Shown here: positions 5,479 through 57,760 of the stretch, one piece after another
Layout: the number at the start of each line of letters is the position of its first letter
How positions within the stretch are numbered: position 1 is the stretch's first letter
Sequence record: MH051335.1
Direction: 5' to 3' (one strand)
Origin: Escherichia phage vB_EcoM-Ro157lw
Length of the DNA: 64,000 bases
Translations under genes and position numbers: made by a program
The notes under the pieces: model-generated
What the model saw: only the letters and a program-made list of their open reading frames with translations
The model's database searches: none
What the model was told of the DNA's origin: nothing

Positions 5479-7833
5479 TTATTTTGCTGATTTTAGCGCG
5501 GCTATCTCTGCCTTGAGTTCATCTATCTGATCCATCAATGCAAGAATAGCCTCGTGGTGCAGCGCCGCAGCCACTCCGTAAGTGTCGACTGATTTGATAT
5601 CCTCGACAATTGTGCCATCCTTTAGTTCCGTGTTTGAATATTTCAAAGTCTTTACTGCATCAGGGAATACGCCTTCTACGTCTTGGGCGATAAAGCCAAT
5701 TCCATTCGGTTTTTCTGATTTATCAAGACGCTCCCAAGTCACACCCTTGATCAACCTCATCTTCCCTAACGGGTCTGAAATCCTTTGAATGTTCGTCTTG
5801 ACCCTCTCATCAGACGTGCTAACCCAGTTCCCAGCACTGGCAGTCCCATCAGGGAAAAATCTGAAGTCAGCGGCTTGCCCTGCCCCGTTGTTGATTGATA
5901 TTTGCGCACGCTCTAAGGCTGTGCTGCCGCCGCGAACGCCGCCAAATGTATAGCTGCCATCATACCAATCTCCTGAAAAATATGACACATATCCAGGCGT
6001 TGATTGATTGAAGTTGACCATCCTCATGGCATTTCTTTCATGCGCTGAAACGCCTACTGAGTTCAACGGTTGCGCAACAAGGTCTTTTGGTCTGAGATAT
6101 GCATTAACAGTCAATGCGCCATCACTTCTCTGAGTCTCAATTTGCGTTATTGAGTCCGGGAAAGATAGTGCTCCATATTGGTTGAATGACCACTCTTGCA
6201 CACCATTTGAAACTATTGCTCCACATTCAGACGATGATCCATCAATCTTGCCGTATGCCTGCAAGAATGCTTGATACGCGATGTTCGTGCCAATCTTATA
6301 TTCAGATTTTACACTACCGCCTCTGACAAGCGTTCCGGTTGCAGGTTTTACTGCGTCGCCGTTGATAACGCTCCAAGACGTATTCGCGGCAACAAATCCA
6401 CCCGATGCACGAATCACCCAAACGCCTTCAAAGGCATTAGGTCGAACTTCATTTGCACCATCACGCCCATAAGCGCCATTGGAAAGGCTTGCATCAATGT
6501 TCAATCCGTTCCTATAGTTAAGGTTTGTTGCACCTCCGTCTGGACCAACTCTTAGGCCTGGAATAACAACAGGTGCTGGAACTATTGCCCCTGTCCCTGT
6601 GTTACCTGCCGTGTTATATTGCGTTGATATTGAAGTACCAATTGAACCGGTTATGTTTGGCGCTGCGTTTTGTCTTACGCGACCGTCAGAAGAAGACACT
6701 CCACCATCGCCTCGTCCAAATAAGCCTGGGATGGACCCCGCTTGGACACCGTTTCTGTCTGGTACGCGGAATGTTGTTGTTCCGTTGCCCAAAGAATATT
6801 TGCCGCGTTTTGCTGGGTCGGCAAGCCAGTCAGCATCGGCAATAGGGGAAAGCATTTGCGCATAAGCCCAAAGTTCAGGCCAGTCTGCACGATTTAACAA
6901 TTGTCCGTCAGAAACGACTTCATAAGGTTGAATATAAGCACGGCTGTCCCGTAAGTGGAAATCACCGACGCCATAGTTCATAACACCGTTCATGCTTGGG
7001 CCAACAGTTCCGGTGTTTACTAAGTTCTCAACCCAACGTTTAGTCGCGGCGTCATAATCATTTACAGGGTCGCCAGCAAGCGGAGTTGGGCCTATCGGTC
7101 GGATATTCAGCCATGCCTGCGCGTTATCACCTGATCCTGTGCCTCCCATCGAAGTAGGAACAATATTTTGATCAGCGACTTGCCCGAATCCAAAAGCGGA
7201 CTTCATCCCTTGGATGGTAGTTTGTCCTGTGCCGCCGTTGGCTACTGGGATGACAGATTCGCTGTTGTATATTTGCTCCCATCGACTCCAAACTCCATTT
7301 ACCGCGTTGTAAGTCCTTTGGTATGTAACATTGTTGTAGTATGTTGAGTATCTTTGTACACAACTTTCTATTGATGGTCCAGTTTTTAGAACTTCAAGGA
7401 CTCCTGCTTGTAAAACTGGGTAATTAAGAACAGGCTGAGCATCTGCATTGAAGTCTTGGAAATAATTTCCAAACCAAGAGCCTGTCAGAAAGTTGAGATT
7501 TATCCCAGAAGGAAGTTTGCCATAATTTCTTACAACCCCTGTTAAGGTCGCAGCAGTGTTACGAATGGAAAGCAGATCTCCAGTCGCCCATGCACGCGCT
7601 GCAGTCCCTTCCTGTGCACGCTGCACGGTCAGGACGTTCCCAACCACGGCTGTTACTGTGACGATTTCGAATTGAAGGCCTGTTGCAGCGTCAACGATTG
7701 TCGCCACTACGCTCTCGTTTGCGCCCAAGGTCGGAAAGTCCGACCCTGAGCGAATTGTGATTGTGGTGTCTGAAGTCGTCGTTGGTTGAGCCAGCGCGAC
7801 CTCAAAGTTGTTTTTGAATATTAGCCTTGGCAT
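5479..7833 (-). CDS. tail fiber protein with tail-collar domain and C-terminal intramolecular chaperone (peptidase S74-type)
   Basis: Collar-like motif LLNRADWPELWAYAQ...FRVPDRNG; C-terminal SDERVKTNI...GFIAQDVE plus terminal coiled coil typical of self-cleaving fiber chaperones; GAGGA SD. Confidence 0.75.
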   Translation of the reverse strand: MPRLIFKNNFEVALAQPTTTSDTTITIRSGSDFPTLGANESVVATIVDAATGLQFEIVTVTAVVGNVLTVQRAQEGTAARAWATGDLLSIRNTAATLTGVVRNYGKLPSGINLNFLTGSWFGNYFQDFNADAQPVLNYPVLQAGVLEVLKTGPSIESCVQRYSTYYNNVTYQRTYNAVNGVWSRWEQIYNSESVIPVANGGTGQTTIQGMKSAFGFGQVADQNIVPTSMGGTGSGDNAQAWLNIRPIGPTPLAGDPVNDYDAATKRWVENLVNTGTVGPSMNGVMNYGVGDFHLRDSRAYIQPYEVVSDGQLLNRADWPELWAYAQMLSPIADADWLADPAKRGKYSLGNGTTTFRVPDRNGVQAGSIPGLFGRGDGGVSSSDGRVRQNAAPNITGSIGTSISTQYNTAGNTGTGAIVPAPVVIPGLRVGPDGGATNLNYRNGLNIDASLSNGAYGRDGANEVRPNAFEGVWVIRASGGFVAANTSWSVINGDAVKPATGTLVRGGSVKSEYKIGTNIAYQAFLQAYGKIDGSSSECGAIVSNGVQEWSFNQYGALSFPDSITQIETQRSDGALTVNAYLRPKDLVAQPLNSVGVSAHERNAMRMVNFNQSTPGYVSYFSGDWYDGSYTFGGVRGGSTALERAQISINNGAGQAADFRFFPDGTASAGNWVSTSDERVKTNIQRISDPLGKMRLIKGVTWERLDKSEKPNGIGFIAQDVEGVFPDAVKTLKYSNTELKDGTIVEDIKSVDTYGVAAALHHEAILALMDQIDELKAEIAALKSAK

Positions 7834-7871: not shown

Positions 7872-8213
7872 TTAATTTCTTTTGAGAGGAATATGACGGT
7901 TGCTGTCATTATTTGGTTTAATAATGAGCATAAAAACGATTAGAAAGATGATGGCTGATATACTTAATTCAATCAGCGCCGCTTGAGATATGGATTGATC
8001 TTCATGATACTGCTTTTGCATTTCTGCTTTCTTCTGAGCGCAAACTTCAGGTGATATATAATCGCCTTTTGAGTTGCCATAATAAATCTCGCCATTCTCA
8101 GAAATAAGCCTGCCGCAAATATCCGTTTCAGCTTTTGCGCTTGAAATCATAATAACGGTGCCGATGATAGCGGCGATAGTCCAGATTAGCAGTTGTGATA
8201 AAGTATTGTTCAT
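7872..8213 (-). CDS. membrane protein (N- and C-terminal hydrophobic segments)
   Basis: ORF track; AGAGG SD. Confidence 0.55.
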   Translation of the reverse strand: MNNTLSQLLIWTIAAIIGTVIMISSAKAETDICGRLISENGEIYYGNSKGDYISPEVCAQKKAEMQKQYHEDQSISQAALIELSISAIIFLIVFMLIIKPNNDSNRHIPLKRN

Positions 8214-8642: not shown

Positions 8643-8853
8643 TTTCTTTCCACTCCACAAATGTACTGCTACTTGTTTCTCTATTTAGCAGGTATCTGCC
8701 GCGCATTCCACGAAGGCTGAATTCAACCGTCGATGGATTAGATTTTGAAAGCCACATCACTTGACCGTCGAACGGTCCGCCAACGCATGTGTATTTGGCC
8801 TTTGGCTCACTCCTTTTGGGCCTCTTTGCCCGCTCTTTGATTGATAGTCTCAT
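8632..8853 (-). CDS. hypothetical basic protein
   Basis: ORF track; AAGGTGA SD. Confidence 0.5.
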   Translation of the reverse strand: MRLSIKERAKRPKRSEPKAKYTCVGGPFDGQVMWLSKSNPSTVEFSLRGMRGRYLLNRETSSSTFVEWKENGK

Positions 8854-9068
8854 CAGTCTTCACCTTGAGATTCAAGACAAGTAAGAACAAGCCACGTCAT
8901 CGGAAGAATCAAAACCAGAGAAATAAGTGACCAAATGGACCAACACAAGATGACAGACTTGAATGTGTGAACGTCGCCAAACGCAGCAGTGAAACAAAAT
9001 CCCATTACGAAAGCAATCGCTGTGGAGTGATTATCAATGGCTTTGATGGCGCGGTCGATGAGTTTCAT
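8853..9068 (-). CDS. small membrane protein with two predicted TM segments (holin candidate, unproven)
   Basis: ORF track; GGAGGT SD; hydrophobic stretches. Confidence 0.5.
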   Translation of the reverse strand: MKLIDRAIKAIDNHSTAIAFVMGFCFTAAFGDVHTFKSVILCWSIWSLISLVLILPMTWLVLTCLESQGED

Positions 9069-35361: not shown

Positions 35362-37149
35362 ATGCCAACACTTATTAACAGACCTTTCGCGCAAAGCGGT
35401 GATGTATCCGTGGTGCCGGATGCAAGCCCAAGCGGTTATGTAAACTTCCAGCGCGGCTACACCCCTGACTATGCGCTTGCTCTGGAGGCCGGAAACGTCG
35501 CCGCGAAAGCTGTTGAGCGCGAATCGATGAACTGGTTGCTGAATTTGATTACAGACAACCTTATGTTTATTCAAGATCATGGTGCTCAACAATATTTCTC
35601 TTCTGACTTGAAGCCGGATGGATACCCGAAAAATGCCATTGTTGTCAGCAACTCTGGAACGCCTTCAGCGCCTGAGTGGCGCATCTTTCAAAGCGTGGTC
35701 GACGGCAACACAAGCGCCGTACCAGCTAACGGAGAAACGGAATCTTGGCAGGAATTAACGCTGCCCAGCGAAGCGCGAAAATACATTCCGATGCCTGCCG
35801 GAGGCGATGCGCAAAACCCGTACTTCGTTCGCGGATTGATTTCAAGCTTTGTGGACTTCGATAATATTACGACTTCCACAACTATCGTCATTCAATCCGA
35901 TGCCGTCGCCGCTCTGTGCTCTAACATCCCGAATGCGGTTGGCGCGACGAAGGTTGCAGGTCGCCTTCAGGTTTGCGCTTGGCAGGTCGATGCGCAAACC
36001 TTTGCCTTGCAGCAATATACATCAATGAATGGCTATTTGTTTACCCGCTCTTACACTTCTGGTGCTTGGAGTGCTTGGATTCAAAATGCCACTGTTCAAG
36101 ACGTGCAAATTGGAACGCCGAATCTTGCATCAGGTAAAGGAGCGCAAGACATAATCCTTACCGTCCCAGCAGGTTATTCATGGCCTCCGTCAGCAGGTAG
36201 TCGCCTGACAATCGTCAATGATGTAACGACTACCGGACCTGTCACCGTGACCATTGGTGTAAACAAAGTTGCCGTTCTTGGATTCGACGGCGGCGAGTTG
36301 CCAGCTGGCGCTATCGTAGGCTTGCTGCCATTCACCATCATTTATGACGGCACTGTTTGGCGTCTCCTTCAGGCGTTTGGCGCGGCGCAAATCGGCGTTG
36401 ATGCTACTGAGGCGCAACAGTTTGTTACAAAGCGCCAACTCGATGCTTTGGCTGCGAAATTGATCACTATGGGCGACGTATTCGAAGTCGGTGAGACTCG
36501 ATTCCTCACCAACGGAACAGACCCGAATACTAAACTGGGCGCTTACGGCCAGGTATGGACACGACTTCCTGATAACATGGTCATCAGAACATCTGGCACG
36601 GCGCGAAACGGTCTTGCCACTGGCGGCGCGGACTCTGTTACTCTCACCGCTGCAATGCTTCCTCTCCACAATCACAGCGTGAACATTACCACGCGACAAA
36701 GTGGTCCATGGTCTAATACCACTGGAGATGCTGGAAATCACAACCACACAGGTGATACAAGTCAAAACGGTGCTCACGTGCATGGAATGGATACGGCAGG
36801 CAACCATCACCATGACAGCAGCTGGGGTGAAGCCAATACTAGCGATGCGCGGTACGGCGTTTATGATGGGACACACAACAACTTCGGAAGTCGCAAAGGC
36901 GGCGACTGGGATAACTACAAATACAACACTTCGACTAACGGCAACCACGTCCATAATATTCAATCTTCTGGATCACACACCCATGGGTTGAATATAAATT
37001 ACGCTGGCAATCACAGCCACAGTTATACCCTTCCCGCTCACACTCATGATGTGGTCGGTAACACTGGCGATGCAGGACAGTCGGTGCCAACGGCTGTTGC
37101 GACTTTGCCGCGATACGTTGTTTTGAATGGCTGGTACAGAAGCGCATAA
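35362..37149 (+). CDS. tail fiber protein with His-x-His repeat tip domain
   Basis: Repeated HNH/HVH/HTH/HSH motifs in the C-terminal third, as in lambda Stf and T4 gp37-type tips; GAGGAA SD. Confidence 0.6.
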   Translation: MPTLINRPFAQSGDVSVVPDASPSGYVNFQRGYTPDYALALEAGNVAAKAVERESMNWLLNLITDNLMFIQDHGAQQYFSSDLKPDGYPKNAIVVSNSGTPSAPEWRIFQSVVDGNTSAVPANGETESWQELTLPSEARKYIPMPAGGDAQNPYFVRGLISSFVDFDNITTSTTIVIQSDAVAALCSNIPNAVGATKVAGRLQVCAWQVDAQTFALQQYTSMNGYLFTRSYTSGAWSAWIQNATVQDVQIGTPNLASGKGAQDIILTVPAGYSWPPSAGSRLTIVNDVTTTGPVTVTIGVNKVAVLGFDGGELPAGAIVGLLPFTIIYDGTVWRLLQAFGAAQIGVDATEAQQFVTKRQLDALAAKLITMGDVFEVGETRFLTNGTDPNTKLGAYGQVWTRLPDNMVIRTSGTARNGLATGGADSVTLTAAMLPLHNHSVNITTRQSGPWSNTTGDAGNHNHTGDTSQNGAHVHGMDTAGNHHHDSSWGEANTSDARYGVYDGTHNNFGSRKGGDWDNYKYNTSTNGNHVHNIQSSGSHTHGLNINYAGNHSHSYTLPAHTHDVVGNTGDAGQSVPTAVATLPRYVVLNGWYRSA

Positions 37150-37157
37150 GGTGATTT

Positions 37158-37802
37158 ATGATTAACGCAAACGTAATATCTAAAGGGACCGGATGCAGCA
37201 TGGATGTTGCAGAGAAATGGGTGGACCCTTTCAAGCAGGCTTGTGAGCACTACGGAATCAAAAGCAAGAGTGCCATCGCGGCATTCCTTGCAAACGTAGG
37301 AGTAGAGACAGGCAGCTTGAAAACATTTGTGGAAAATCTCAACTACTCTGCACAGGGTCTTGCCAACACGTGGCCTAGTCGTTACAGCGTCAACGGTCGC
37401 TCTGGAAGTTCCCCGAACTCATTGGCCCTGTCGATTGCCCGTAAACCAATGGAAATCGCCAATAATACATATGCAAACCGCATGGGAAATGGTTCGGTAG
37501 CATCTGGCGACGGCTGGAAGTACCGTGGCCGTGGTGCCATTCAGCTGACTGGCAAGGCGAACTATGCGGAATATACGCGCCAATCAGGCTATGATGCGTT
37601 GAACAATCCTGATATTCTGACTGAACCAAAATACATTGCCGACAGCGCGGCATGGTTCTTTAAGAATAGCGGTTGTATCCCTCTTGCGGATGCAGGAAAT
37701 TTTGATTCAACCGTTAAGCGAATTAACGGGGCCGCGCCGAACGCAGCAAACCACGGTGAGTTGCGAAGAAAGCGTTACAAAGATGCACTAGCAGTTATGT
37801 AA
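37158..37802 (+). CDS. endolysin, glycoside hydrolase family 19 (chitinase-like lysozyme)
   Basis: Motif YRGRGAIQLTGKANY typical of GH19 catalytic core. Confidence 0.7.
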   Translation: MINANVISKGTGCSMDVAEKWVDPFKQACEHYGIKSKSAIAAFLANVGVETGSLKTFVENLNYSAQGLANTWPSRYSVNGRSGSSPNSLALSIARKPMEIANNTYANRMGNGSVASGDGWKYRGRGAIQLTGKANYAEYTRQSGYDALNNPDILTEPKYIADSAAWFFKNSGCIPLADAGNFDSTVKRINGAAPNAANHGELRRKRYKDALAVM

Positions 37803-37805
37803 GAA

Positions 37806-37825
37806 AAAGGCCCATATGGGCCTTT
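37806..37825. terminator. bidirectional hairpin terminator (AAAGGCCC/GGGCCTTT, loop ATAT) between convergent genes
   Basis: Perfect 8-bp stem flanked by A-run and T-run. Confidence 0.6.
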
Positions 37826-37827
37826 GT

Positions 37828-38040
37828 TTATTTTACGGCTTCAACTTGGACGGGCGGAGCGGAACTTGTATCAATGTCTGGCAAGTCGAAGTAATACCCC
37901 GCCATACCAATCACACCCACAATCGCGGCCCGTGCCACCTTGCTGCTAATTGACTCCCCAATAAGCTTTACCAACAGGGATAAGATTTGAGACGTCAAAG
38001 CCTTTTTCAGCCTTTTGTTTTCTTCCAAATCTTTCTGCAT
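37828..38040 (-). CDS. small protein with C-terminal TM segment (ATG at 38040; track extends to TTG 38058)
   Basis: ORF track; GGGTGG SD. Confidence 0.45.
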   Translation of the reverse strand: MQKDLEENKRLKKALTSQILSLLVKLIGESISSKVARAAIVGVIGMAGYYFDLPDIDTSSAPPVQVEAVK

Positions 38041-38054
38041 AACTACCACCCATG

Positions 38055-38597
38055 TCAACGCACTTCCTGTGTCTTAACATTACCTGAAGCATCTCTCAAG
38101 GGCAGTGGATAGTAGGCCATTTGGTAGTCTGATACGCCTTCAATGTGATAAAACACGATTACGTCTTTGCTGTTGATGAGCATGTTAACGACATCTGATT
38201 TATCTTCTGGAGTGAGTATTAGTGCGCCGCCTGTCCTGCTGTCTACTGCAACAGGGTATGTCTTGTCGACAAGGCCGCTGTCCAATGTATTATACCTGAC
38301 AACGATTTCAGGGGCATCAACTTTTGCCATTGACATTCCGAACACAAACGACACTACTTGTCGACCGCGATCATTCATTACGCACATCTTTTCTTTGTCA
38401 AATCTTTCTTTTATTACGTCGTATTTGTTCCAGCAGAACTCAAAGGATTGCCCATTGTTGAAATATCTTGTCAAAACTTTTGCACTTCCATTCGGCGGCG
38501 TAAACATATTTTCAGCCGATGCAGTCTTGGTGAAGAATATAACTGTCAGCATAGCCATGATGATGATCAAAACAATCTTTAATTTGTTCGCTTTCAT
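38055..38597 (-). CDS. secreted/periplasmic protein (N-terminal signal peptide)
   Basis: Signal-like N-terminus MKANKLKIVLIIIMAMLTVIFFTKTASA; AAGGTGA SD. Confidence 0.55.
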   Translation of the reverse strand: MKANKLKIVLIIIMAMLTVIFFTKTASAENMFTPPNGSAKVLTRYFNNGQSFEFCWNKYDVIKERFDKEKMCVMNDRGRQVVSFVFGMSMAKVDAPEIVVRYNTLDSGLVDKTYPVAVDSRTGGALILTPEDKSDVVNMLINSKDVIVFYHIEGVSDYQMAYYPLPLRDASGNVKTQEVR

Positions 38598-38678
38598 TAT
38601 AATTCACCTTTTGATTATGAATATTAATAGTATAGGCTCAAGGTTTTGAAAGTAAATACGCCGAAAGTAAATAAAAGA

Positions 38679-38700
38679 AAAGCCGGAAATTTCCGGCTTT
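38679..38700. terminator. 22-bp perfect palindrome AAAGCCGGAAATTTCCGGCTTT, bidirectional terminator-like
   Basis: Direct reading downstream of ligase gene. Confidence 0.55.
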
Positions 38701-38772
38701 ATGTATACACTGTATATTAAATTCTAGAAAACAGCGCGATAGATTATACGCACCAATTATTTATCCAGTGTG

Positions 38773-39747
38773 TTAAAAATACTCCATATCGGTGATATCA
38801 CGGAAGCACTTATACAAGGCAGAGCGCGGCACGTCAACTATGCCAAAGTTAAAGAATTTATATGTCAGATACTTGTTTCGATAATTCTCGCGATTCTCCC
38901 AAAGCATTTTTCTCTCTGCCATAGGCATTGAACCAGCGGAGACGCGGAAGGGAATCATTTCACCTTTCTCATCAACATATTTTGGATTGACAACCACAAA
39001 TGATCCAAGGTATCCTTTTGCAACTAAGCCTTCAGCCTCTTTCGAACGCTTAGTGCGACCCAGCTCATCAATGAATGCTTCGTTGTTGTTCTCCATCATC
39101 TCAACGAAGTCTATGATCAGTCCTTCTTCATCGGTCCACGGCTTGTCCTTCCACACATCACGTGACTTTGGCGTCGCGCGGCCATGCTTGTATTTGCCCG
39201 TCCAAGACTTGCCATACAAGCCTTCATAGCCAAGCTGGTCTGCTTCGATTTGCATCGCCGCGTACTGTTCCATATTTTCGATGTTTCGATATTCGAGAGC
39301 GCGAAGGAATGGGCGTCGACCATGGTTGATGAGGTGCTGATTGACTTCAGCAACTCTAGCGCGATAGTTTGCATAACGTTTTTCAAAAGGCAAATCAGGG
39401 TCGCTGAAGTCATCAAACACCCACCATGTAAAGTTAGTGATTGCATCAGTGTTCATGCATGCAGTATAGGCCTGTTGCATGACGTTCTTGTCGTTCGGAT
39501 TGCCGTCAATTAGCTCTCCATCAAGGCCGTGAATCAATTCACCCAAAAAGAGGAACTCTTTCTTGATTTGAATGTTGCGCAACGCCATGCCGGACGTGCC
39601 CATTGGCAAATTGTCATATGCCATCGCGCGTATGCCATCGACCTTGAATGACAGTCCGCAAGGCAGCGGCACATCTTCGCCGCGCTCGATGATTTGTTTA
39701 CGCTGGCACCCTTTCATTGGTTTTAATGCTTTGATTTCTCCTGCCAT
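38773..39747 (-). CDS. ATP-dependent DNA ligase (small phage type)
   Basis: Motif I KVDGIR, motif III LDGELI, EGLYGK/EGLVAK motifs; ATG at 39747 (track extends to GTG 39750). Confidence 0.65.
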   Translation of the reverse strand: MAGEIKALKPMKGCQRKQIIERGEDVPLPCGLSFKVDGIRAMAYDNLPMGTSGMALRNIQIKKEFLFLGELIHGLDGELIDGNPNDKNVMQQAYTACMNTDAITNFTWWVFDDFSDPDLPFEKRYANYRARVAEVNQHLINHGRRPFLRALEYRNIENMEQYAAMQIEADQLGYEGLYGKSWTGKYKHGRATPKSRDVWKDKPWTDEEGLIIDFVEMMENNNEAFIDELGRTKRSKEAEGLVAKGYLGSFVVVNPKYVDEKGEMIPFRVSAGSMPMAERKMLWENRENYRNKYLTYKFFNFGIVDVPRSALYKCFRDITDMEYF

Positions 39748-40340
39748 CACTCAAACTCCTTATTCATCACTTGTTCCATTGCATAGGCGTAAGCCTGATC
39801 AGTCGATTTGATAAACGTTCCGTTGTACATCACTCCTTTACGGTCCTTGATGTCTTCATAGGCGGCTTGAGCGCAATCAGACAGTCGAAGTCCATAATCA
39901 TGCGCTACGCCGGAAAGATAATCGACTGCGGCCATGATGGTGACATCAATATCCATACTCTGATTTTTAGCAATGGCGTCACCAAGCCGTCCGAGAGTCT
40001 TTGCCAAGCGAAGGATAAACGAGTGAGGGTGGGCACCTTTGTCAGCGCAACCGCCGCCGTTGATGTCTTCGATTTTTGCACCATTTTGCGCGGCAAGAAT
40101 AGTTAACACAACAAGGCAATCGCCGATGTCATCCTTGATTGCGGCTTGTAAATCACAGATGGCCTGCTCTGTATATCCGATTTCAGGGTCAAAGAACACA
40201 AGGTCATGTAATTGATCAATGTGGTCGGTCAACTCCCCAAACTCGCTAATAAGCTTCGGGTATTGGTCCTTAAGGTCGCAGCCTTGGATGATGTTACGGT
40301 CAGAAGCCCACTGGCGAATGTTTGCATAAATCTGGTTCAT
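39747..40340 (-). CDS. MazG-like nucleotide pyrophosphohydrolase (tentative)
   Basis: Acidic helical motifs ISEFGELTD and DDIGDCLVVLTILA; AAAGGA SD. Confidence 0.4.
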   Translation of the reverse strand: MNQIYANIRQWASDRNIIQGCDLKDQYPKLISEFGELTDHIDQLHDLVFFDPEIGYTEQAICDLQAAIKDDIGDCLVVLTILAAQNGAKIEDINGGGCADKGAHPHSFILRLAKTLGRLGDAIAKNQSMDIDVTIMAAVDYLSGVAHDYGLRLSDCAQAAYEDIKDRKGVMYNGTFIKSTDQAYAYAMEQVMNKEFE

Positions 40341-40855
40341 TTATTTTCCTTTGATGCATTGAATTGATCGATTTTAATTTTAGCCTGATTATAAGTATCA
40401 ATCAAGCTATTAACCTTCTCTTTTAATCGGTTTGTTTCTGCGGCGAACTGAACAAGAAAACTGACATCTTCTTCTGATAGTCCACAGTTTCCTTCTGGGA
40501 TAGAGAGGCGTCCAGTGGTCGCAGAGTCGGGCATACTCCTGAGTAATTCACGGGAGCAGCTGAGTTGCTCGCGCAGCTTGATATTCCCAGACTTGTAACG
40601 AGCAATAGTGTCATCAGCAACCAGTTGCGCTTCCTGGCGACCCTTCTCATATGCCGATGCCGATTCAACCTGTAAAGATGCAATTTGCTCTTCGAGTGCA
40701 TTTATCTTGTCCTTACGCTCATTGAGCGATGTCAGATATTGATTATCCTTGGCCAGTGATGCGTTGGTTTGCTGAAGGTCTTCAACGTATGATCCAGCGG
40801 CGAACGCGCCAACAAGGGCCAGAATCTTCAGAAGCGGCACAATTCTTTCTATCAT
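40337..40855 (-). CDS. i-spanin (Rz-like)
   Basis: N-terminal TM then long coiled coil; contains an embedded lipoprotein ORF in another frame. Confidence 0.5.
   Translation of the reverse strand: MIERIVPLLKILALVGAFAAGSYVEDLQQTNASLAKDNQYLTSLNERKDKINALEEQIASLQVESASAYEKGRQEAQLVADDTIARYKSGNIKLREQLSCSRELLRSMPDSATTGRLSIPEGNCGLSEEDVSFLVQFAAETNRLKEKVNSLIDTYNQAKIKIDQFNASKENK
40423..40650 (-). CDS. o-spanin (Rz1-like lipoprotein) embedded in the i-spanin gene
   Basis: Alternate-frame ORF: MRRVARKRNWLLMTLLLVTSLGISS then Cys (lipobox-like ISSC); mature part has Pro and a second Cys. Confidence 0.45.
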   Translation of the reverse strand: MRRVARKRNWLLMTLLLVTSLGISSCASNSAAPVNYSGVCPTLRPLDASLSQKETVDYQKKMSVFLFSSPQKQTD

Positions 40856-40912
40856 GATGCACCAGATAAATAAAAGGCCGCCAATCGGCAGCCTTGTTGA
40901 TTTGATTGTCGA

Positions 40913-41773
40913 TTAAAACTCTTCTGCGTCGGTCGGAGTTTCATTAACAGGGCCAGCGGCACCGCTTGCTTCTTCCTGCTTGCTGCGGTCAATGTTAACG
41001 TTGCCGCCAACTACATCGTTGTGGAATGCTTTGGCGACTTCATACAGACCTTTGTCCTGCACCAGACCTTCCAGCTCAAACTTCAGAACTGACCAGGTGT
41101 TGCCATCTTTAGACTGAGACGCAGTACCCATGCGAACGATGTTCATGAAGGTCGGCGGAGTTTTCAGGCCCTGCGGAGTCTGAACTTTCTTCTGCTGCAG
41201 AGCGGTCATCAGCATGCGAGACGGCTTGATCATGGAAGAAGTCAGAGACAGCATTGCGCTACCAAATTCACCAGTTTCTTCGTTCAACAGGATCACAAAG
41301 TGGTTACGTGTATCTGCGTAGTAAGGTGATTTCTTCTCGTGCACCTTGCCGTTTTCGTCTGGCACAAACACCTTACCGTTGATTTCAACAGCGCGGCCTG
41401 CTGCGACTTCTGCATCAACGTGCTCTTTGGTGAATTCACCTTTAAAGCCTTTATCGTCGGACTCGCGACCGCCCCAAAGGATGAAGGTGCGTTTGAATGC
41501 GCAAGGGATGATCTGCACACCTTTCTTGCCGTCATACAATTCACCAGTAACGGTGTTGTACAACATACCAGCTTTTGCGCCAGGAACGTGTTTTGGATCA
41601 TCTTCGTCGACCATCGGAGACATCTTTTGCAGTACGACGATAAAAGGAATGGCATAAGCGTCGGCATCGGCACCTTCAAAGCCAGCGCCAAAATCGGTCA
41701 TGTCGACAAAATCAGCCATAGCGGACATCTGGGTGTTTTTCACTGCAACTTCGGTAGTTTCTTTCTTAGACAT
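40913..41773 (-). CDS. hypothetical protein with acidic C-terminal tail ending in Phe (SSB-like feature)
   Basis: C-terminus ETPTDAEEF. Confidence 0.4.
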   Translation of the reverse strand: MSKKETTEVAVKNTQMSAMADFVDMTDFGAGFEGADADAYAIPFIVVLQKMSPMVDEDDPKHVPGAKAGMLYNTVTGELYDGKKGVQIIPCAFKRTFILWGGRESDDKGFKGEFTKEHVDAEVAAGRAVEINGKVFVPDENGKVHEKKSPYYADTRNHFVILLNEETGEFGSAMLSLTSSMIKPSRMLMTALQQKKVQTPQGLKTPPTFMNIVRMGTASQSKDGNTWSVLKFELEGLVQDKGLYEVAKAFHNDVVGGNVNIDRSKQEEASGAAGPVNETPTDAEEF

Positions 41774-41832
41774 TTGATGTTTTCCTATAGTATCAAGTTT
41801 CGTGGCAACCTGATTTCAAGATAAAGGTTAAA

Positions 41833-42390
41833 TTACTTTTTGCTTTTAGGCAAGGTTATTTTAGCTTCTTTATACTCAAAAACGCTAATATCTTCACTAA
41901 CTGGATTACCCGCTTCCAGCTGTTCTTTTACAAATGACTTCAGTGTAGCAGAGTGAACGCCTTGTTTCAACGTGGCTTCAACACCATCTTCACGCAGCGC
42001 GGCAACAATCTCTTGCGCTTGCTCGATTTCTTCGCGACCGAACTCAGCCGTGACGCTGGACTTGATCAAGCCGCCGTAACCGTTGTTGACAAGCCAATCG
42101 AATACCTTCAATTCATTTTCTTTCTTGATTGAAGCATTGACTTTTGACTCGACCTTGATTTTGGTCTTGTCTTCAAGCTTGATTTCGGACACGCCAAGCT
42201 CATCCATGACGCCAGGAAGCAGAACAGTTTTGATTTCACTGATGCGCTGCTTTTGCATATCAGCTTCATCTTCAAGCTCTGTCAAAGCTTCTTGGCGCTC
42301 TGCCAATTCCGATACTAAGCGCGCAAGGCGCTCTTGGATGCTCTCAGGAGCGACCTGCGGCAAATCATCTTCCCAATTAATATTGCTCAT
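41833..42390 (-). CDS. hypothetical coiled-coil protein
   Basis: ORF track. Confidence 0.55.
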   Translation of the reverse strand: MSNINWEDDLPQVAPESIQERLARLVSELAERQEALTELEDEADMQKQRISEIKTVLLPGVMDELGVSEIKLEDKTKIKVESKVNASIKKENELKVFDWLVNNGYGGLIKSSVTAEFGREEIEQAQEIVAALREDGVEATLKQGVHSATLKSFVKEQLEAGNPVSEDISVFEYKEAKITLPKSKK

Positions 42391-45424: not shown

Positions 45425-47678
45425 TGGTCCAGTTCATTGAAGAGTGATCAGGGTCGATTGGCACATAATCCACGCCTTCCTTTGCAAGTTCACGTAATAT
45501 CGCAATCGTCTGGTCTTCGTCCTTGGCAGCGCGTAAGCAAGCAGCGGCAAATTCCAACGGATAGTGTCGTTTAAGCCACAAGGTCCAGTAGGTCACGACC
45601 GCGTATGATACGGAGTGTGACTTGTTAAATCCCCATGACCCGAACGTCGCCATTGCTTGCCAAAGCTTTCTTGCATCAGCTTCCGGTACGCCGTTATTTA
45701 TTGCGCCTGCAACGAAGTCTTCGCCAAGCTTGTTAAAGTATTCCTCACCCTTACGGCCTGACATCGCCTTACGTACAGCGGATGTCTTCGCCCAGTCAAA
45801 TGAACCAATCTCTTTAACCACGGCCATGATTTGCTCTTGGTAAAGAAACACGCCGTAAGTCTCTTTTAAGTACGGCTCAAGCTGCGGCACGTCGTACTCA
45901 ATCGGCGCACGTCCTGCCGCGCGTTCGATGTATTTCTGGGCCATACCGGATGACAACGGGCCAGGTCGGCCAAGTGCTGTCAGGTTATCGATTTTGTTAA
46001 AGTTATCAACGTGCACAAAGTTGGTTACTGAGCGTACAGCGTCGCCTTCGAACTGGAAGATTCCTGACATCTTATTTTCGTTAAGGATGTCAAGGACGCT
46101 TTGATCATTGAGCTTGATTCCGTACAGTGTTTCAGCATCTATCACGCCAGTATCAGAAATGATGCCGAGGGTACGAAGGCCCAATGCATCAAGCTTCAAA
46201 AGGTTAAGGTATTCGCTGTCAGGCTTATCAATTTGTGCAATCCCTTCCGCCGTTACCGTACAGTAATCAGAGATTGGATCATTACACACGATGATTCCCG
46301 CTGCGTGAACGCCAGTGTGGGAAGGGTGAATTTCAAGGTCACCCATGCATCGCGCGGCATCAGGATATTTAGCCACAAACTCTTGGCCCGTGGTCGTTGT
46401 TGCAAAGGTGTCCTCCAGGCCGTGGCCATAACGGGCGTCACCGGATGAGTATTCAAGCAATGCGTTTTTAATGTTGGCCGTTTCGTGATATCCAATGTTG
46501 AATTTCTTACCAACCTGAGCCATTACTGAGTTGGCCTTAAGCGTGTTGATGTTGCCAAGCTTTGCAACGTTCATTTCGCCGTATTTTTCTTTAAGGTAAT
46601 CAAACACCATATAGCGTTTGGTATCCTCAAAGTCAATATCAATATCAGGAAGGTCTGCGCGGCTTACGTCAATGAATCGGGCAAACAGTAGCTTATACGG
46701 GATTGGGTCAACTTCCGTGATGCCGAGGCAATAACAAACCAGTGAACCAGCCGATGAGCCGCGAGCGGGTCCGACGAGCATTTTTGTTTTTGCGAATCGT
46801 ACAAGGTCCGCTACCACCAGAAAGTATGAGTCGAAATCTTTCAGCTGAATCTGGTGAATCTCTTCGTTGAATCGGTCCTCATATTCCTGAGTCCATTCTT
46901 TGATGTGGCCTGCCTTAAGGCGGTACTCCATCCCCTCACGAGCAAGCTTTACCATGTCACCAGCAAGGTGGATAATCGGTGCCTTGCGCAGCTTCAGGTC
47001 AAGTCCCACGATTCCGTTTGCAATGTCAACTGCATTGGCCGTTGCTTGATTCAACTCATCTTCGGTCAATATTCCTTTAAGCTGTTTGCGCAAGTCTTCC
47101 GCGTCAACGATACAGTGCGGCTTGACCGTGTCGCGCACTTCCCAAGCATAAGCAAAGTCAACGTGCTCAGGTGAAGGCATGTGGTTGTATCCGGTTAAAA
47201 CCAGCGGCCTTCCGTTGCTGCGGTGAGCCAATACCTGGCGCTTGGCCAAAAGGAACGATGATGGGTTGACGTCTATATAATCGTAGTCCTCTGGCCGCAG
47301 CAACTCCACGGCCCCGCCACAGAATTTAACGACGCCATCGAGCGCCCCGAACTCTGCACGGGTCAGTCCGCCGCGCTGTGTTGCAAGCGTGGTCGCGTTG
47401 TAAAAGGATTTCAGGTCAAGCGCCAATATCCAAGCCTTCGGTTTGAATCCCTTTTTCGGGTCCGCATCAGGGTCGATGATTGGAATTTCCATGCCGAACA
47501 TAGGCTTAATATCATTTTTCTGGCACTCCTTTTCCCATCGAACGTGACCCCATGTATTGTTATCAACTAATGCCGCGACTTCGCAGCCCAACTCTTTGAG
47601 CCGTGCTATAATTTCAGGATGCCGTCCATATACTTCTTTGAACGTGTAACCGCTGCGAACTCTCAATTGTGGAAACAT
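45291..47678 (-). CDS. dnaE: DNA polymerase III alpha-like (DnaE, C-family) catalytic subunit, interrupted at its 3' end
   Basis: Motifs GPARGSSAGSLVCYCLGITEVDP, GIFQFEG, FNKSHSVSYA; PHP-like N-terminus. Confidence 0.8.
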   Translation of the reverse strand: MFPQLRVRSGYTFKEVYGRHPEIIARLKELGCEVAALVDNNTWGHVRWEKECQKNDIKPMFGMEIPIIDPDADPKKGFKPKAWILALDLKSFYNATTLATQRGGLTRAEFGALDGVVKFCGGAVELLRPEDYDYIDVNPSSFLLAKRQVLAHRSNGRPLVLTGYNHMPSPEHVDFAYAWEVRDTVKPHCIVDAEDLRKQLKGILTEDELNQATANAVDIANGIVGLDLKLRKAPIIHLAGDMVKLAREGMEYRLKAGHIKEWTQEYEDRFNEEIHQIQLKDFDSYFLVVADLVRFAKTKMLVGPARGSSAGSLVCYCLGITEVDPIPYKLLFARFIDVSRADLPDIDIDFEDTKRYMVFDYLKEKYGEMNVAKLGNINTLKANSVMAQVGKKFNIGYHETANIKNALLEYSSGDARYGHGLEDTFATTTTGQEFVAKYPDAARCMGDLEIHPSHTGVHAAGIIVCNDPISDYCTVTAEGIAQIDKPDSEYLNLLKLDALGLRTLGIISDTGVIDAETLYGIKLNDQSVLDILNENKMSGIFQFEGDAVRSVTNFVHVDNFNKIDNLTALGRPGPLSSGMAQKYIERAAGRAPIEYDVPQLEPYLKETYGVFLYQEQIMAVVKEIGSFDWAKTSAVRKAMSGRKGEEYFNKLGEDFVAGAINNGVPEADARKLWQAMATFGSWGFNKSHSVSYAVVTYWTLWLKRHYPLEFAAACLRAAKDEDQTIAILRELAKEGVDYVPIDPDHSSMNWTIANGKLIGGIMNAKGYGMVKAMKYIEAREAGTLTQKQKDALANR

Positions 47679-57649: not shown

Positions 57650-57760
57650 ATGCATATGAAAGCCGTAAAGAAATACACATTAATCATTTCCCTTGTTATC
57701 ATCCTGGGGCTATTATATGTATTGGATATGGCATATTATTTGGCAGGGGTGAGTAAATGA
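57650..57760 (+). CDS. small hydrophobic peptide (36 aa, single TM); holin or membrane modulator candidate
   Basis: AGGT SD; hydrophobic core LIISLVIILGLLYVL; ATGA overlap with next gene. Confidence 0.3.
   Translation: MHMKAVKKYTLIISLVIILGLLYVLDMAYYLAGVSK

What the first reader, a model, noticed from the sequence alone, without database searches (positions are those of the whole stretch)
40337..40855. Embedded Rz/Rz1-type spanin pair far from the endolysin; holin not identified
A lipoprotein ORF (signal peptide ending ...LGISS-C) is fully embedded in another frame inside a TM-plus-coiled-coil gene, the classic embedded spanin architecture. It lies in the replication module, about 2.5 kb from and on the opposite strand to the GH19 endolysin (37158..37802). 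No canonical holin is adjacent to either; candidates are the small TM proteins at 37828..38040, 8853..9068 and 57650..57760.
Basis: partly seen in the sequence, partly recalled or inferred. Interest (0 to 1): 0.35.

Follow-up and report, generated by a model that had tools for sequence, protein, structure and literature searches.

The report
Known embedded spanin pair, Wifcevirus phage
This is a real but already catalogued pair of overlapping phage genes (an Rz/Rz1-type spanin) that breaks the bacterial outer membrane at the end of infection; it is ordinary apart from lying away from the cell-wall enzyme gene, and the phage's holin is still unidentified.

Summary
The window is a Wifcevirus, a PB1-like E. 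coli myophage 96-98% identical to RCIP0363, EC150, Mansfield and ECML-117. ORF 40337..40855(-) encodes a 172-aa protein with an N-terminal TMD and a helical periplasmic domain (PHROG "Rz-like spanin", E 9e-27). Embedded in its +1 frame, 40423..40701(-) encodes a lipoprotein (…LGISS|C, Ala at +2).

Distant Rz homologues (PY54, LIET2, Mica) carry a homologous lipoprotein at the same embedded position (42-47% identity, both Cys conserved). That profile matches lambda Rz1 (hhalign 93.5%).

It is already known. Kongari et al. 2018 list the ECML-117 pair (98.8% identical i-spanin, identical signal peptide) as an embedded two-component spanin, and GenBank Mansfield and Bas98-101 annotate i-spanin/o-spanin.

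It lies 2.5 kb from, and convergent with, the GH19 endolysin, which has no SAR or signal sequence. No holin family matched.

Added here:
- Candidate 37828..38040 is the syntenic orthologue of Pantoea phage PA1-LRP, reported to permeabilise membranes and help the homologous endolysin.
- 8853..9068 (71 aa, 2 TMD) is the most holin-like ORF by topology.
- 57650..57760 is unlikely.
- Related genera hold a phrog_1544 membrane protein in this slot instead of Rz/Rz1.

The parts
40337..40855 (-). i-spanin (Rz-like) CDS, 172 aa. Type II inner-membrane protein with a helical periplasmic domain and Cys100/Cys123. Its TGA stop overlaps the ATG of the MazG-like gene (ATGA).
   Evidence: ORF. phrog_1327 Rz-like spanin, E 9e-27. 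tblastn to PY54 Rz 1e-14, LIET2 1e-12, Mica i-spanin 2e-6. AF2 helices. Cys100 is invariant in the alignment with lambda Rz. Junction sequence.
40787..40843 (-). Codons 5-23 of the i-spanin: the N-terminal transmembrane segment IVPLLKILALVGAFAAGSY.
   Evidence: Best 17-aa KD 2.14 at residue 5. KD19 1.80. Kongari supplement: N-terminal non-periplasmic segment (with the TMD) 24 aa, periplasmic domain 148 aa, for the 98.8%-identical ECML-117 protein.
40423..40701 (-). Embedded o-spanin (Rz1-like) ORF in the +1 frame, 92 aa from the first ATG. The start chosen by Kongari et al. is the ATG at 40650 (75 aa). Either start gives the same 50-aa mature lipoprotein.
   Evidence: ORF and frame. Open in 13 genomes. 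42-47% identical to the embedded o-spanins of LIET2, PY54 and Mica (41-48% in the alignment that includes lambda). hhalign against lambda Rz1: probability 93.5%, E 2.3e-7. GenBank 92-aa form; Kongari 75-aa form.
40573..40584 (-). Lipobox codons I-S-S-C (Cys43 of the 92-aa form). The residues after the Cys are Ala-Ser, so no Asp at +2, which predicts outer-membrane sorting.
   Evidence: Regex and sequence. Cys invariant, with an I>M variant in 2 of 13 genomes. The signal peptide is identical to the ECML-117 entry (lipobox column GISS) in the census.
40426..40575 (-). Mature o-spanin, 50 aa: CASNSAAPVNYSGVCPTLRPLDASLSQKETVDYQKKMSVFLFSSPQKQTD. It has a second Cys (Cys57) and a conserved ...ETxDYQxxMSxFLF motif.
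   Evidence: Alignments A1 and A4. Cys57 is invariant in 13 genomes.
40874..40895 (-). Intrinsic-terminator hairpin (9 bp stem, then TTATTTAT) that ends 18 nt before the i-spanin ATG. The same element precedes the equivalent slot in the other PB1-like genera.
   Evidence: Terminator scan. RNAfold -15.9 kcal/mol here, with comparable hairpins in E215, PA1 and Hera. Annotated as a terminator in Mansfield.
40860..40863 (-). Putative Shine-Dalgarno GGTG for the i-spanin.
   Evidence: Sequence. The same element is marked in the Kongari supplement (ggccttttatttatctGGTgcatc).
40710..40715 (-). TAAGGA, a good Shine-Dalgarno 8 nt upstream of the first ATG of the embedded ORF. It supports the 92-aa start.
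   Evidence: Upstream sequences of all candidate starts. An RBS is annotated there in Mansfield.
37158..37802 (+). GH19 endolysin, 214 aa, the last gene of the rightward structural operon. It has no N-terminal SAR or signal sequence, so it needs a release factor.
   Evidence: PF00182, 32.2 bits; phrog_181, 8e-70. N-terminal 60 aa: KD19 maximum 1.15, no apolar run of 12 or more. The PA1-Lys homologue is reported to lack a TMD or signal.
37806..37825 (.). Bidirectional terminator hairpin between the convergent endolysin and the small LRP-like gene.
   Evidence: Terminator scan. Annotated on both strands in Mansfield.
37828..38040 (-). 70-aa protein (phrog_5165), the syntenic orthologue of Pantoea phage PA1-LRP and a candidate endolysin-release or membrane-damaging factor. 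It is not a canonical holin: its only apolar run is 14 residues.
   Evidence: phrog_5165, 3.4e-8. tblastn to Kyle 6e-11 and PA1 7e-4. The PA1 ORF L024 5983..6204 begins MVRRR and ends QKVEQQK, matching the published LRP primers, and sits next to the endolysin. Alignment A5. Hydropathy.
8853..9068 (-). 71-aa, 2-TMD protein found only in Wifcevirus. Topologically it is the most holin-like ORF (class II-like), though it has an acidic C-terminus.
   Evidence: TM scan. Found only in the 28 Wifcevirus records. No family hit.
7872..8213 (-). 113-aa Wifcevirus-only membrane protein: a signal-like N-terminal TMD, a ~55-aa loop with 2 Cys, a C-terminal TMD and a basic tail.
   Evidence: TM scan. Wifcevirus-only. 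It lies in the same leftward gene string as the 784-aa tail-fibre-like ORF 5479..7833.

Best explanation
This is a functional two-component spanin of the lambda Rz/Rz1 kind, in the fully embedded architecture, belonging to a Wifcevirus (a PB1-like E. coli myophage).

Shown by sequence:
- The outer gene encodes a type II inner-membrane protein: an N-terminal TMD, then about 148 periplasmic residues forming two long helical regions joined by a linker, with two periplasmic Cys.
- The +1-frame inner gene encodes a signal-peptidase-II lipoprotein with Ala at +2. The mature product is 50 aa and has one further Cys.

Inferred from the lambda paradigm (my own knowledge of the Young-lab work on Rz/Rz1; only the Kongari 2018 census was read here):
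1. Rz1 is lipidated and sorted by Lol to the inner leaflet of the outer membrane.
2. The C-termini of Rz and Rz1 bind, so the complex spans the periplasm through the murein mesh.
3. Homotypic intermolecular disulfides stabilise dimers.
4. Once the GH19 endolysin has destroyed the peptidoglycan, the complexes are free to cluster and collapse. This fuses the inner and outer membranes and removes the last barrier to release.

Expression (inferred):
- The pair is not in a lysis cassette. It is the first cistron after a conserved terminator in the leftward MazG-ligase string.
- It is translationally coupled to MazG through an ATGA overlap.
- It is probably made by terminator read-through or from an unrecognised phage promoter. 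Early synthesis would be harmless, because spanins are inert until the wall is degraded. T4 PseT.3/PseT.2 likewise lie away from the holin and endolysin genes.

Origin:
- The pair most likely came by horizontal transfer from an Rz/Rz1 cassette of an enterobacterial phage. PY54 and LIET2 are the nearest relatives.
- It went into a backbone slot that in sister genera holds an unrelated membrane protein (phrog_1544).
For: - PHROG Rz-like spanin, E 9e-27, for the outer protein; weak Rz-like spanin hits (phrog_4306, phrog_1275, phrog_11621) for the inner one.
- Homologues in the canonical holin-endolysin-Rz/Rz1 cassettes of PY54 and Mica.
- Four of five aligned homologues match Pfam PF03245.
- The embedded lipoprotein is conserved at the same position in all four lineages, at 42-47% identity.
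- The o-spanin profile against lambda Rz1 gives hhalign probability 93.5%, E 2.3e-7.
- Rz Cys100 aligns with the first periplasmic Cys of lambda Rz.
- TMD, lipobox and +2 residue. Helical model.
- The ORF is intact, with Cys invariant, in 13 genomes.
- Chance control: 52 of 5000.
- Prior curation as a spanin pair: Kongari 2018 tables and supplement and GenBank MK903282 and PQ850631.
- No PB1-type u-spanin homologue and no other credible lipoprotein ORF in the window.
Against: - No experiment exists for this protein pair; everything rests on sequence and homology.
- The window's Rz does not itself reach any Pfam hit (PF03245 absent at E<=1).
- The Rz profile against lambda Rz is weak (hhalign probability 24%, E 8e-4).
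- The mature o-spanin has only 4 Pro in 50 residues (counted by eye from the translation); lambda Rz1 has a much higher proline content.
- Within Wifcevirus the overlap region is not markedly less variable than the non-overlapped parts: 0.070 against 0.083-0.104 variable sites per nt. Several changes are non-synonymous in the Rz1 frame, so close-range selection evidence is weak.
- The position behind a terminator, in a replication-gene string, is atypical, and expression timing is unknown.
- The translation start of the o-spanin is unresolved (92 or 75 aa).
Confidence: 0.9

Rival explanations
1. Only the outer gene is functional. The embedded lipoprotein-like ORF is a fortuitous open frame in a biased coiled-coil gene, and outer-membrane disruption is done by something else.
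For: An alternative-frame ORF of 75 codons or more arises in 1449 of 5000 synonymous resamplings, so length alone means little. Many intra-genus substitutions are non-synonymous in the inner frame. There is no Pfam Rz1 hit.
Against: A lipoprotein signal arises in only 52 of 5000 resamplings. The inner protein is 42-47% identical to embedded o-spanins in Rz genes whose own identity is 27-31%, with both Cys and the ETxD(Y/F)Q..M..FLF motif conserved. hhalign against lambda Rz1 gives 93.5%. The frame is never interrupted in 13 genomes.
Confidence: 0.03
2. The pair is a spanin by descent but no longer acts in lysis. Sitting with MazG and ligase behind a terminator, it is a poorly expressed relic or has been co-opted, for example for superinfection exclusion or envelope remodelling.
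For: The location is non-canonical and a strong terminator lies 18 nt upstream. No sigma-70-like promoter was found between the terminator and the start. Related genera keep a different membrane protein in this slot.
Against: Rz is under clear purifying selection: 16 of 22 variable sites in its non-overlapped parts are synonymous. All functional motifs are retained. No alternative spanin is detectable in the window. T4 shows that spanins need not be linked to the holin or endolysin. The ATGA coupling to MazG argues that the cistron is translated.
Confidence: 0.06
3. On the holin sub-question, the missing holin function is supplied by the 70-aa LRP orthologue (37828..38040) next to the endolysin. 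It would be a non-canonical membrane-active protein rather than a TMD holin.
For: It is the syntenic orthologue of PA1-LRP. When expressed in E. coli, PA1-LRP reduced growth, released beta-galactosidase and enhanced killing by the homologous GH19 endolysin (PMC11538084). It is conserved next to the endolysin in Wifcevirus, Kylevirus, Pbunavirus and Myosmarvirus. There is a faint phrog_6384 holin hit, E 0.094.
Against: The apolar run is only 14 residues and KD19 is 1.34. The PA1 effects were modest, measured over 6-24 h of overexpression or as fusions, and no interaction with the endolysin was found. The Pbunavirus orthologue is even less hydrophobic. Pbunavirus also has a separate 3-TMD holin-like protein, gp82. 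The Wifcevirus-specific 2-TMD protein at 8853..9068 fits holin topology better.
Confidence: 0.3

Closest known systems
Escherichia phage ECML-117 embedded i-spanin/o-spanin (Kongari et al. 2018, BMC Bioinformatics 19:326; 'singleton' families EIS/EOS), with the GenBank features CPT_Mansfield_057/058 and Bas101_0037/0038
   Same: The same genes in the same genus. The i-spanin is 98.8% identical. The o-spanin signal peptide MRRVARKRNWLLMTLLLVTSLGISS is identical, as are the 50-aa mature length, the embedded +1 architecture and the genome position.
   Different: A few substitutions (Rz V108M, R132S; Rz1 R78K, D81V, R90Q relative to ECML-117). GenBank calls a 92-aa o-spanin and the census a 75-aa one.
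Yersinia phage PY54 ORF63 (Rz) with its embedded Rz1; Pantoea phage LIET2 gp065; Burkholderia phage Mica i-/o-spanin
   Same: These are the nearest homologues outside the genus: i-spanin 27-31%, o-spanin 42-47% identity. They share the TMD, the G-N-x-(R/K)-L-x5-C motif, the embedded +1 lipoprotein at the same position and the second Cys. They match Pfam PF03245.
   Different: In PY54 and Mica the pair is the last unit of a holin-endolysin-spanin cassette. Here it is detached, 2.5 kb from a convergent GH19 endolysin and among replication genes.
Lambda Rz/Rz1 (the prototype embedded two-component spanin)
   Same: The architecture and the +1 embedding are the same. So is the cysteine pattern: two periplasmic Cys in Rz and one in mature Rz1. 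The o-spanin is homologous (hhalign 93.5%) and shares the C-x-x-P...(L/I)MQ...D(W/F/Y)Q motif.
   Different: i-spanin similarity is marginal (17% identity; hhalign probability 24%). The mature o-spanin is longer (50 against 40 aa) and has far fewer prolines. The pair is not adjacent to S and R equivalents.
T4 PseT.3/PseT.2 spanins
   Same: A precedent for spanin genes lying away from the holin and endolysin genes in a virulent myophage (Kongari 2018, Fig. 8 legend).
   Different: The T4 genes are in the 'separated' architecture, not embedded, and are an unrelated sequence family.
PB1-family unimolecular spanin (AWAC lipobox) of Pbunavirus, e.g. E215 gp79
   Same: It does the same job in the closest sister genus on the same genome backbone.
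   Different: It is a single protein with a lipobox and a C-terminal TMD, encoded between terminase and portal. It has no homologue in this window. The spanin type and locus are therefore non-orthologous between the sister genera.

Membership tests
Two-component spanin, embedded architecture (Rz/Rz1 type) | The i-spanin has a single N-terminal TMD (type II, N-in/C-out). | tested here: met
   Residues 5-23 are hydrophobic (KD17 2.14; KD19 1.80) and there is no other TMD. The census gives an N-terminal non-periplasmic segment of 24 aa for the ECML-117 orthologue. Topology itself was not predicted with a dedicated tool.
Two-component spanin, embedded architecture (Rz/Rz1 type) | The periplasmic domain of the i-spanin is predominantly alpha-helical or coiled-coil, with a linker. 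| tested here: met
   AF2 DSSP: H5-88, H94-114, linker 115-127, H128-170; pLDDT 70-86 over residues 31-170. The Kongari supplement gives 62.8% helix and one coiled coil at 25-77 for ECML-117.
Two-component spanin, embedded architecture (Rz/Rz1 type) | The o-spanin has a signal-peptidase-II signal with a lipobox Cys and no Lol-avoidance Asp at +2. | tested here: met
   A basic n-region, the h-region LLMTLLLVTSLG, the lipobox ISS|C and then Ala-Ser. No LipoP or SignalP was available here. The identical signal peptide is recorded in the census with a 25-aa signal sequence and lipobox GISS.
Two-component spanin, embedded architecture (Rz/Rz1 type) | The o-spanin gene lies entirely within the i-spanin gene in the +1 frame. 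| tested here: met
   40423..40701 lies inside 40337..40855 with frame offset 1. The arrangement is the same in PY54, LIET2, Mica and lambda.
Two-component spanin, embedded architecture (Rz/Rz1 type) | Periplasmic cysteines are available for homotypic intermolecular disulfides. | tested here: met
   Rz C100 and C123, and Rz1 C57, are invariant in 13 genomes. C100 is an invariant alignment column that includes lambda Rz. Disulfide formation itself is not testable here.
Two-component spanin, embedded architecture (Rz/Rz1 type) | Function: required for outer-membrane disruption; complements lambda RzRz1 nonsense mutants. | not testable with these tools
   This needs genetics. No published test of a Wifcevirus spanin was found.
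Pfam PF03245 Phage_lysis (bacteriophage Rz lysis protein) | The sequence scores above the family threshold. | tested here: not met
   No PF03245 hit for the window protein even at E<=1. Its homologues LIET2, PY54 and Mica, and lambda Rz, do match (4 of 5). It is therefore a divergent relative reachable only transitively (tblastn to PY54, 1e-14).
Lambda Rz1 family (o-spanin) | Detectable sequence homology to lambda Rz1. | tested here: met
   hmmscan of the single sequence finds nothing. The 4-sequence profile aligns to lambda Rz1 over 54 columns with probability 93.5%, E 2.3e-7.
Holin (considered for 37828..38040, 8853..9068, 7872..8213 and 57650..57760) | A small protein with at least one true TMD and a charged, usually basic, C-terminal tail, encoded with late genes, that triggers membrane permeabilisation. 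| tested here: inconclusive
   - 37828..38040: 14-aa apolar run only, KD19 1.34.
- 8853..9068: 2 TMD but an acidic tail (-3).
- 7872..8213: 2 TMD and a basic tail (+2), but a ~55-aa loop.
- 57650..57760: 36 aa, 1 TMD, in the early-gene region.
No holin family hit better than E 0.09. Function is not testable here.
Unimolecular spanin (T1 gp11 / PB1 type) | [quoted passage not shown] | tested here: not met
   The window has no ORF with both features. There is no homologue of E215 gp79 (tblastn E<=1) and no AWAC lipobox in a real ORF.

The most novel reading that the evidence does not exclude
The spanin pair itself is not new. The most novel reading left open concerns its slot.

A backbone position is conserved across PB1-like genera: gp34-like gene, terminator hairpin, gene X, then a MazG-like gene that overlaps or directly abuts X.
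- In Wifcevirus, X is Rz/Rz1.
- In Pbunavirus, Kylevirus and Myosmarvirus, X is a ~201-aa phrog_1544 membrane protein with a glycine-zipper N-terminus, a coiled coil and two C-terminal TMDs.

This could mean that phrog_1544 is an unrecognised lysis protein, either a holin or a new envelope disruptor, which the Rz/Rz1 cassette displaced. Wifcevirus endolysin release would then depend on non-canonical factors: the PA1-LRP orthologue and/or the genus-specific 2-TMD proteins.
Probability: 0.2. Interest if true: 0.45.

Novelty: already known. Interest (0 to 1): 0.12.

Why it matters
For the spanin pair the result only confirms existing annotation. It is useful as quality control, because several GenBank records of this genus still label both genes 'hypothetical protein', and the two curated sources disagree on the o-spanin start codon.

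The wider point is modest but real. Within one conserved myophage backbone the lysis functions are scattered and non-orthologous between sister genera:
- an embedded two-component spanin here, against a unimolecular spanin at a different locus in Pbunavirus;
- no recognised spanin in the Myosmarvirus phage MTx (its authors), and none found in the Kylevirus phage Kyle by a crude scan.

The holin of the whole group is still unassigned. That gives a short, concrete candidate list for anyone engineering these therapeutic or biocontrol phages or their endolysins.

Tried and rejected
- **The search for related loci with the 5-sequence Rz alignment.** The single-protein scan of IMG/VR returned only near-identical Wifcevirus contigs plus one weak 31% hit, so distant diversity had to come from the phage GenBank collection.
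- **Pfam, NCBIfam and PHROG scans of all small membrane ORFs.** None gave a usable holin assignment.
- **A PB1-type u-spanin or the Pbunavirus 3-TMD holin-like gp82 in this phage.** There are no homologues. The terminase-portal interval that houses them in E215 holds only two soluble small genes here.
- **ORF 41833..42390 as a u-spanin.** I checked it because the JJ01 paper labels the equivalent 621-nt gene 'U-spanin'. It is a Pam3 gp33-like DUF7307 protein with no signal or TMD, so that label is probably a misannotation. The equivalence with JJ01 ORF85 rests on gene size and order only.
- **A SAR endolysin.** Rejected on hydropathy.
- **Intra-genus substitution analysis as a test of dual-frame selection.** It was uninformative at 96-100% identity.
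- **Literature searches for Wifcevirus lysis genes.** They found no experimental work.
Full report
**Identity of the window.** Megablast of 36500..42000 finds 28 full-length matches at 91-98% identity. All are Wifcevirus E. coli/Shigella myophages (RCIP0363, EC150, Mansfield, ECML-117, WFH, FEC19, Bas98-101), with weaker partial matches to Pseudomonas Pbunavirus phages. The Mansfield announcement describes the group as PB1-like.

**The observation.**
- The outer ORF 40337..40855(-) is 172 aa. The inner ORF 40423..40701(-) is 92 aa, in the +1 frame and wholly contained.
- The outer protein has one hydrophobic segment (residues 5-23). A single-sequence AF2 model makes it helical throughout: H5-88, H94-114, a 115-127 linker and H128-170, with mean pLDDT 71.
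- The inner protein has a basic n-region, the hydrophobic core LLMTLLLVTSLG, the lipobox I-S-S-C and Ala-Ser after the Cys.
- The endolysin at 37158..37802(+) is GH19 and lies 2,535 bp away on the other strand.
- The intervening and flanking genes are a MazG-like pyrophosphatase, an ATP-dependent ligase, a Pam3 gp34-like protein, helicases and the polymerase.

Every factual element of the finding is therefore confirmed.

**Is the embedded ORF more than chance?**
- Length alone is not informative. In 1449 of 5000 synonymous resamplings of the outer gene, an alternative-frame ORF of at least 75 codons appears. Only 52 of 5000 carry anything resembling a lipoprotein signal.
- It is the only credible lipoprotein ORF in 64 kb.
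- The decisive evidence is comparative. tblastn with the outer protein finds, beyond the genus, the Rz genes of Yersinia phage PY54 (1e-14), Pantoea phage LIET2 (1e-12) and Burkholderia phage Mica (2e-6).
- Each of these has, in the +1 frame and at the same relative position (lipobox at codon ~91-99 of that frame), a lipoprotein ORF.
- Those lipoproteins are 42-47% identical to the window's and share the lipobox Cys, a second Cys followed by Pro, and an ETxD(Y/F)Q..M..FLF motif. The host Rz proteins are only 27-31% identical.
- The 4-sequence o-spanin profile aligns to lambda Rz1 with hhalign probability 93.5%, E 2.3e-7.
- For the i-spanin the link to lambda is weak directly (probability 24%). 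However, LIET2, PY54, Mica and lambda Rz all match Pfam PF03245, whereas the window protein does not. It is thus a divergent relative reached transitively, and PHROG assigns it to Rz-like spanins at 9e-27.
- In 13 Wifcevirus genomes the inner frame is never interrupted, and Cys43, Cys57, Rz Cys100 and Rz Cys123 are invariant. The substitution pattern at this short evolutionary distance does not by itself demonstrate dual-frame constraint.

**Already known.**
- Kongari et al. 2018 list ECML-117 among the embedded two-component spanins, as a singleton i-spanin and a singleton o-spanin family.
- It also gives a 'not annotated/putative o-spanin' at 45462..45689: 75 aa, a 25-aa signal MRRVARKRNWLLMTLLLVTSLGISS and a 50-aa mature protein.
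- That signal peptide is identical to the window's, and the i-spanin is 98.8% identical.
- GenBank MK903282 (Mansfield) annotates i-spanin and o-spanin with RBSs and an upstream terminator. Bas98-101 annotate 'Rz-like spanin' and 'o-spanin'.
- The curated sources differ only on the o-spanin start. GenBank uses the first ATG (40701 here), which has a good TAAGGA Shine-Dalgarno 8 nt upstream. The census uses the ATG at 40650, which gives a conventional 25-aa signal but has no obvious SD. Both give the same mature lipoprotein.

**Mechanism.**
- By homology with lambda (my own knowledge of the published lambda work, plus the Kongari review text read here), Rz is anchored in the inner membrane and Rz1 is lipid-anchored in the outer membrane.
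- Their C-termini associate across the periplasm, and disulfide-linked dimers form.
- After the endolysin degrades the murein, the complexes fuse the two membranes.
- The sequence prerequisites are shown here. The function is inferred.

**Genomic setting and expression.**
- A 9-bp-stem intrinsic terminator (40874..40895, minus strand) ends 18 nt before the Rz ATG. The next good terminator follows the ligase (38679..38700). A bidirectional hairpin (37806..37825) separates the leftward genes from the convergent endolysin.
- No sigma-70-like promoter lies between the terminator and Rz.
- The Rz stop overlaps the MazG start (ATGA).
- I infer expression by read-through or from an unrecognised phage promoter, together with replication genes. 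Linkage to the holin and endolysin is not a requirement: the T4 spanins are likewise unlinked from t and e.

**The slot.**
- In Pbunavirus E215, Myosmarvirus Hera and Kylevirus PA1/Kyle the gene order is preserved: helicase, gp33-like, gp34-like, hairpin, X, MazG-like, ligase, ..., small protein, convergent GH19 endolysin.
- The hairpin is preserved too, and in Hera it is nearly identical in sequence.
- In those genera X is a ~201-aa phrog_1544 protein with a glycine-rich N-terminus, a coiled coil and two C-terminal TMDs. This is the 'PA1-LVP' of the PA1 paper, judged from its primer.
- The window has no phrog_1544 homologue, so Rz/Rz1 replaces that gene in a conserved backbone.
- The Pbunavirus u-spanin with the AWAC lipobox described by Kongari et al. 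is E215 gp79. It lies between terminase and portal, next to a 3-TMD holin-like gp82. Neither has a homologue here, and that interval is reduced to two small soluble genes.
- The MTx (Myosmarvirus) authors could not identify a holin or spanin. My crude scan finds no spanin in Kyle.

**Holin.**
- No family search identifies one, and none is annotated in the Mansfield region read here or in the whole Bas101 record.
- The endolysin lacks any SAR or signal segment, so a release factor is needed.
- *Candidate 37828..38040.* It belongs to phrog_5165 and is conserved next to the endolysin in all four genera. It is the syntenic orthologue of PA1-LRP: the PA1 ORF at L024 5983..6204 matches the published primers. 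PA1-LRP reduced growth, released beta-galactosidase and enhanced killing by the homologous endolysin on overexpression. Its apolar stretch is only 14 residues, so it is not a canonical holin.
- *Candidate 8853..9068.* It has two TMDs in 71 aa (class II-like) but an acidic tail. Like Rz/Rz1, it is confined to Wifcevirus.
It has two TMDs and a basic tail and is also genus-specific. Both this ORF and 8853..9068 lie in a leftward string with a 784-aa tail-fibre-like gene, which suggests late expression (an inference).
- *Candidate 57650..57760.* It is a 36-aa single-TMD ORF among small early-region genes and is the least likely.

**Verdict.** This is a real, correctly interpreted and already catalogued embedded Rz/Rz1-type spanin. 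Interest is low. The only leads of any novelty are peripheral: the slot exchange with phrog_1544, and the LRP orthologue as a possible non-canonical endolysin-release factor.

Noticed in passing
window 40337..40912; L009 5733..6397; L010 5871..6545; L024 2991..3659: The slot between the gp34-like gene, with its conserved terminator hairpin, and the MazG-like gene holds Rz/Rz1 in Wifcevirus. In Pbunavirus E215, Myosmarvirus Hera and Kylevirus PA1 it holds an unrelated ~201-aa phrog_1544 membrane protein (Gly-zipper N-terminus, coiled coil, 2 C-terminal TMDs; function unknown). The window has no phrog_1544 homologue.
   Followed up: partly
window 37828..38040 (-); L024 5983..6204: The 70-aa gene convergent with the endolysin is the syntenic orthologue of Pantoea phage PA1-LRP (52% identity over residues 2-53). 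PA1-LRP is reported to damage membranes and to enhance killing by the homologous GH19 endolysin (PMC11538084). Orthologues also sit next to the endolysin in Pbunavirus and Myosmarvirus.
   Followed up: yes
window 38055..38597 (-): A 180-aa protein with a cleavable-looking signal peptide (…TKTASA|EN) lies between the ligase terminator and the LRP-like gene. Counterparts occupy the same place in PA1 (L024 5407..5967, 186 aa) and Hera gp72, the latter supported only by a weak tblastn match (21% identity, E 0.002). It has no family assignment and is possibly a periplasmic or envelope protein co-expressed with LRP.
   Followed up: partly
window 7872..8213 (-) and 8853..9068 (-): Two membrane proteins are found only in the 28 Wifcevirus records: one of 113 aa (signal-like TMD, 2-Cys loop, C-terminal TMD, basic tail) and one of 71 aa (2 TMD). 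They lie in the leftward gene string that also contains the 784-aa tail-fibre-like ORF 5479..7833, divergent from the terminase gene.
   Followed up: partly
window 41833..42390 (-); L009 4127..4747: The gene that the JJ01 Pbunavirus paper labels 'U-spanin' (ORF85, 621 nt) corresponds, by size and gene order, to a Pam3 gp33-like DUF7307 protein with no signal peptide or TMD. The true AWAC-lipobox u-spanin is E215 gp79 (L012 7094..7492, minus strand), so the label is probably a propagated misannotation.
   Followed up: partly
window 40650 vs 40701 (-): Curated sources disagree on the o-spanin start. GenBank Mansfield and Bas101 use the first ATG (92 aa, preceded by TAAGGA). Kongari et al. use the internal ATG (75 aa, conventional 25-aa signal, no clear SD). 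The mature product is unaffected.
   Followed up: yes
L025 12875..13420 (-) (Pantoea phage Kyle gp027): The only lipoprotein-signal ORF found in phage Kyle (MKKAIALLSLALAGC|S…) is annotated 'protease' and lies in the terminase-portal interval, the same region that houses the u-spanin and holin-like genes in Pbunavirus. It was not examined further.
   Followed up: no
window 40337..40855 homologues in GenBank: Several records of the genus still label the i-spanin 'hypothetical protein', with no separate o-spanin feature in those read here: RCIP0363, RCIP0319, EC150, AV128, ECO71P1, vB_Eco4M-7, WFH and WFC originals. CWP003 has no feature there at all.
   Followed up: no
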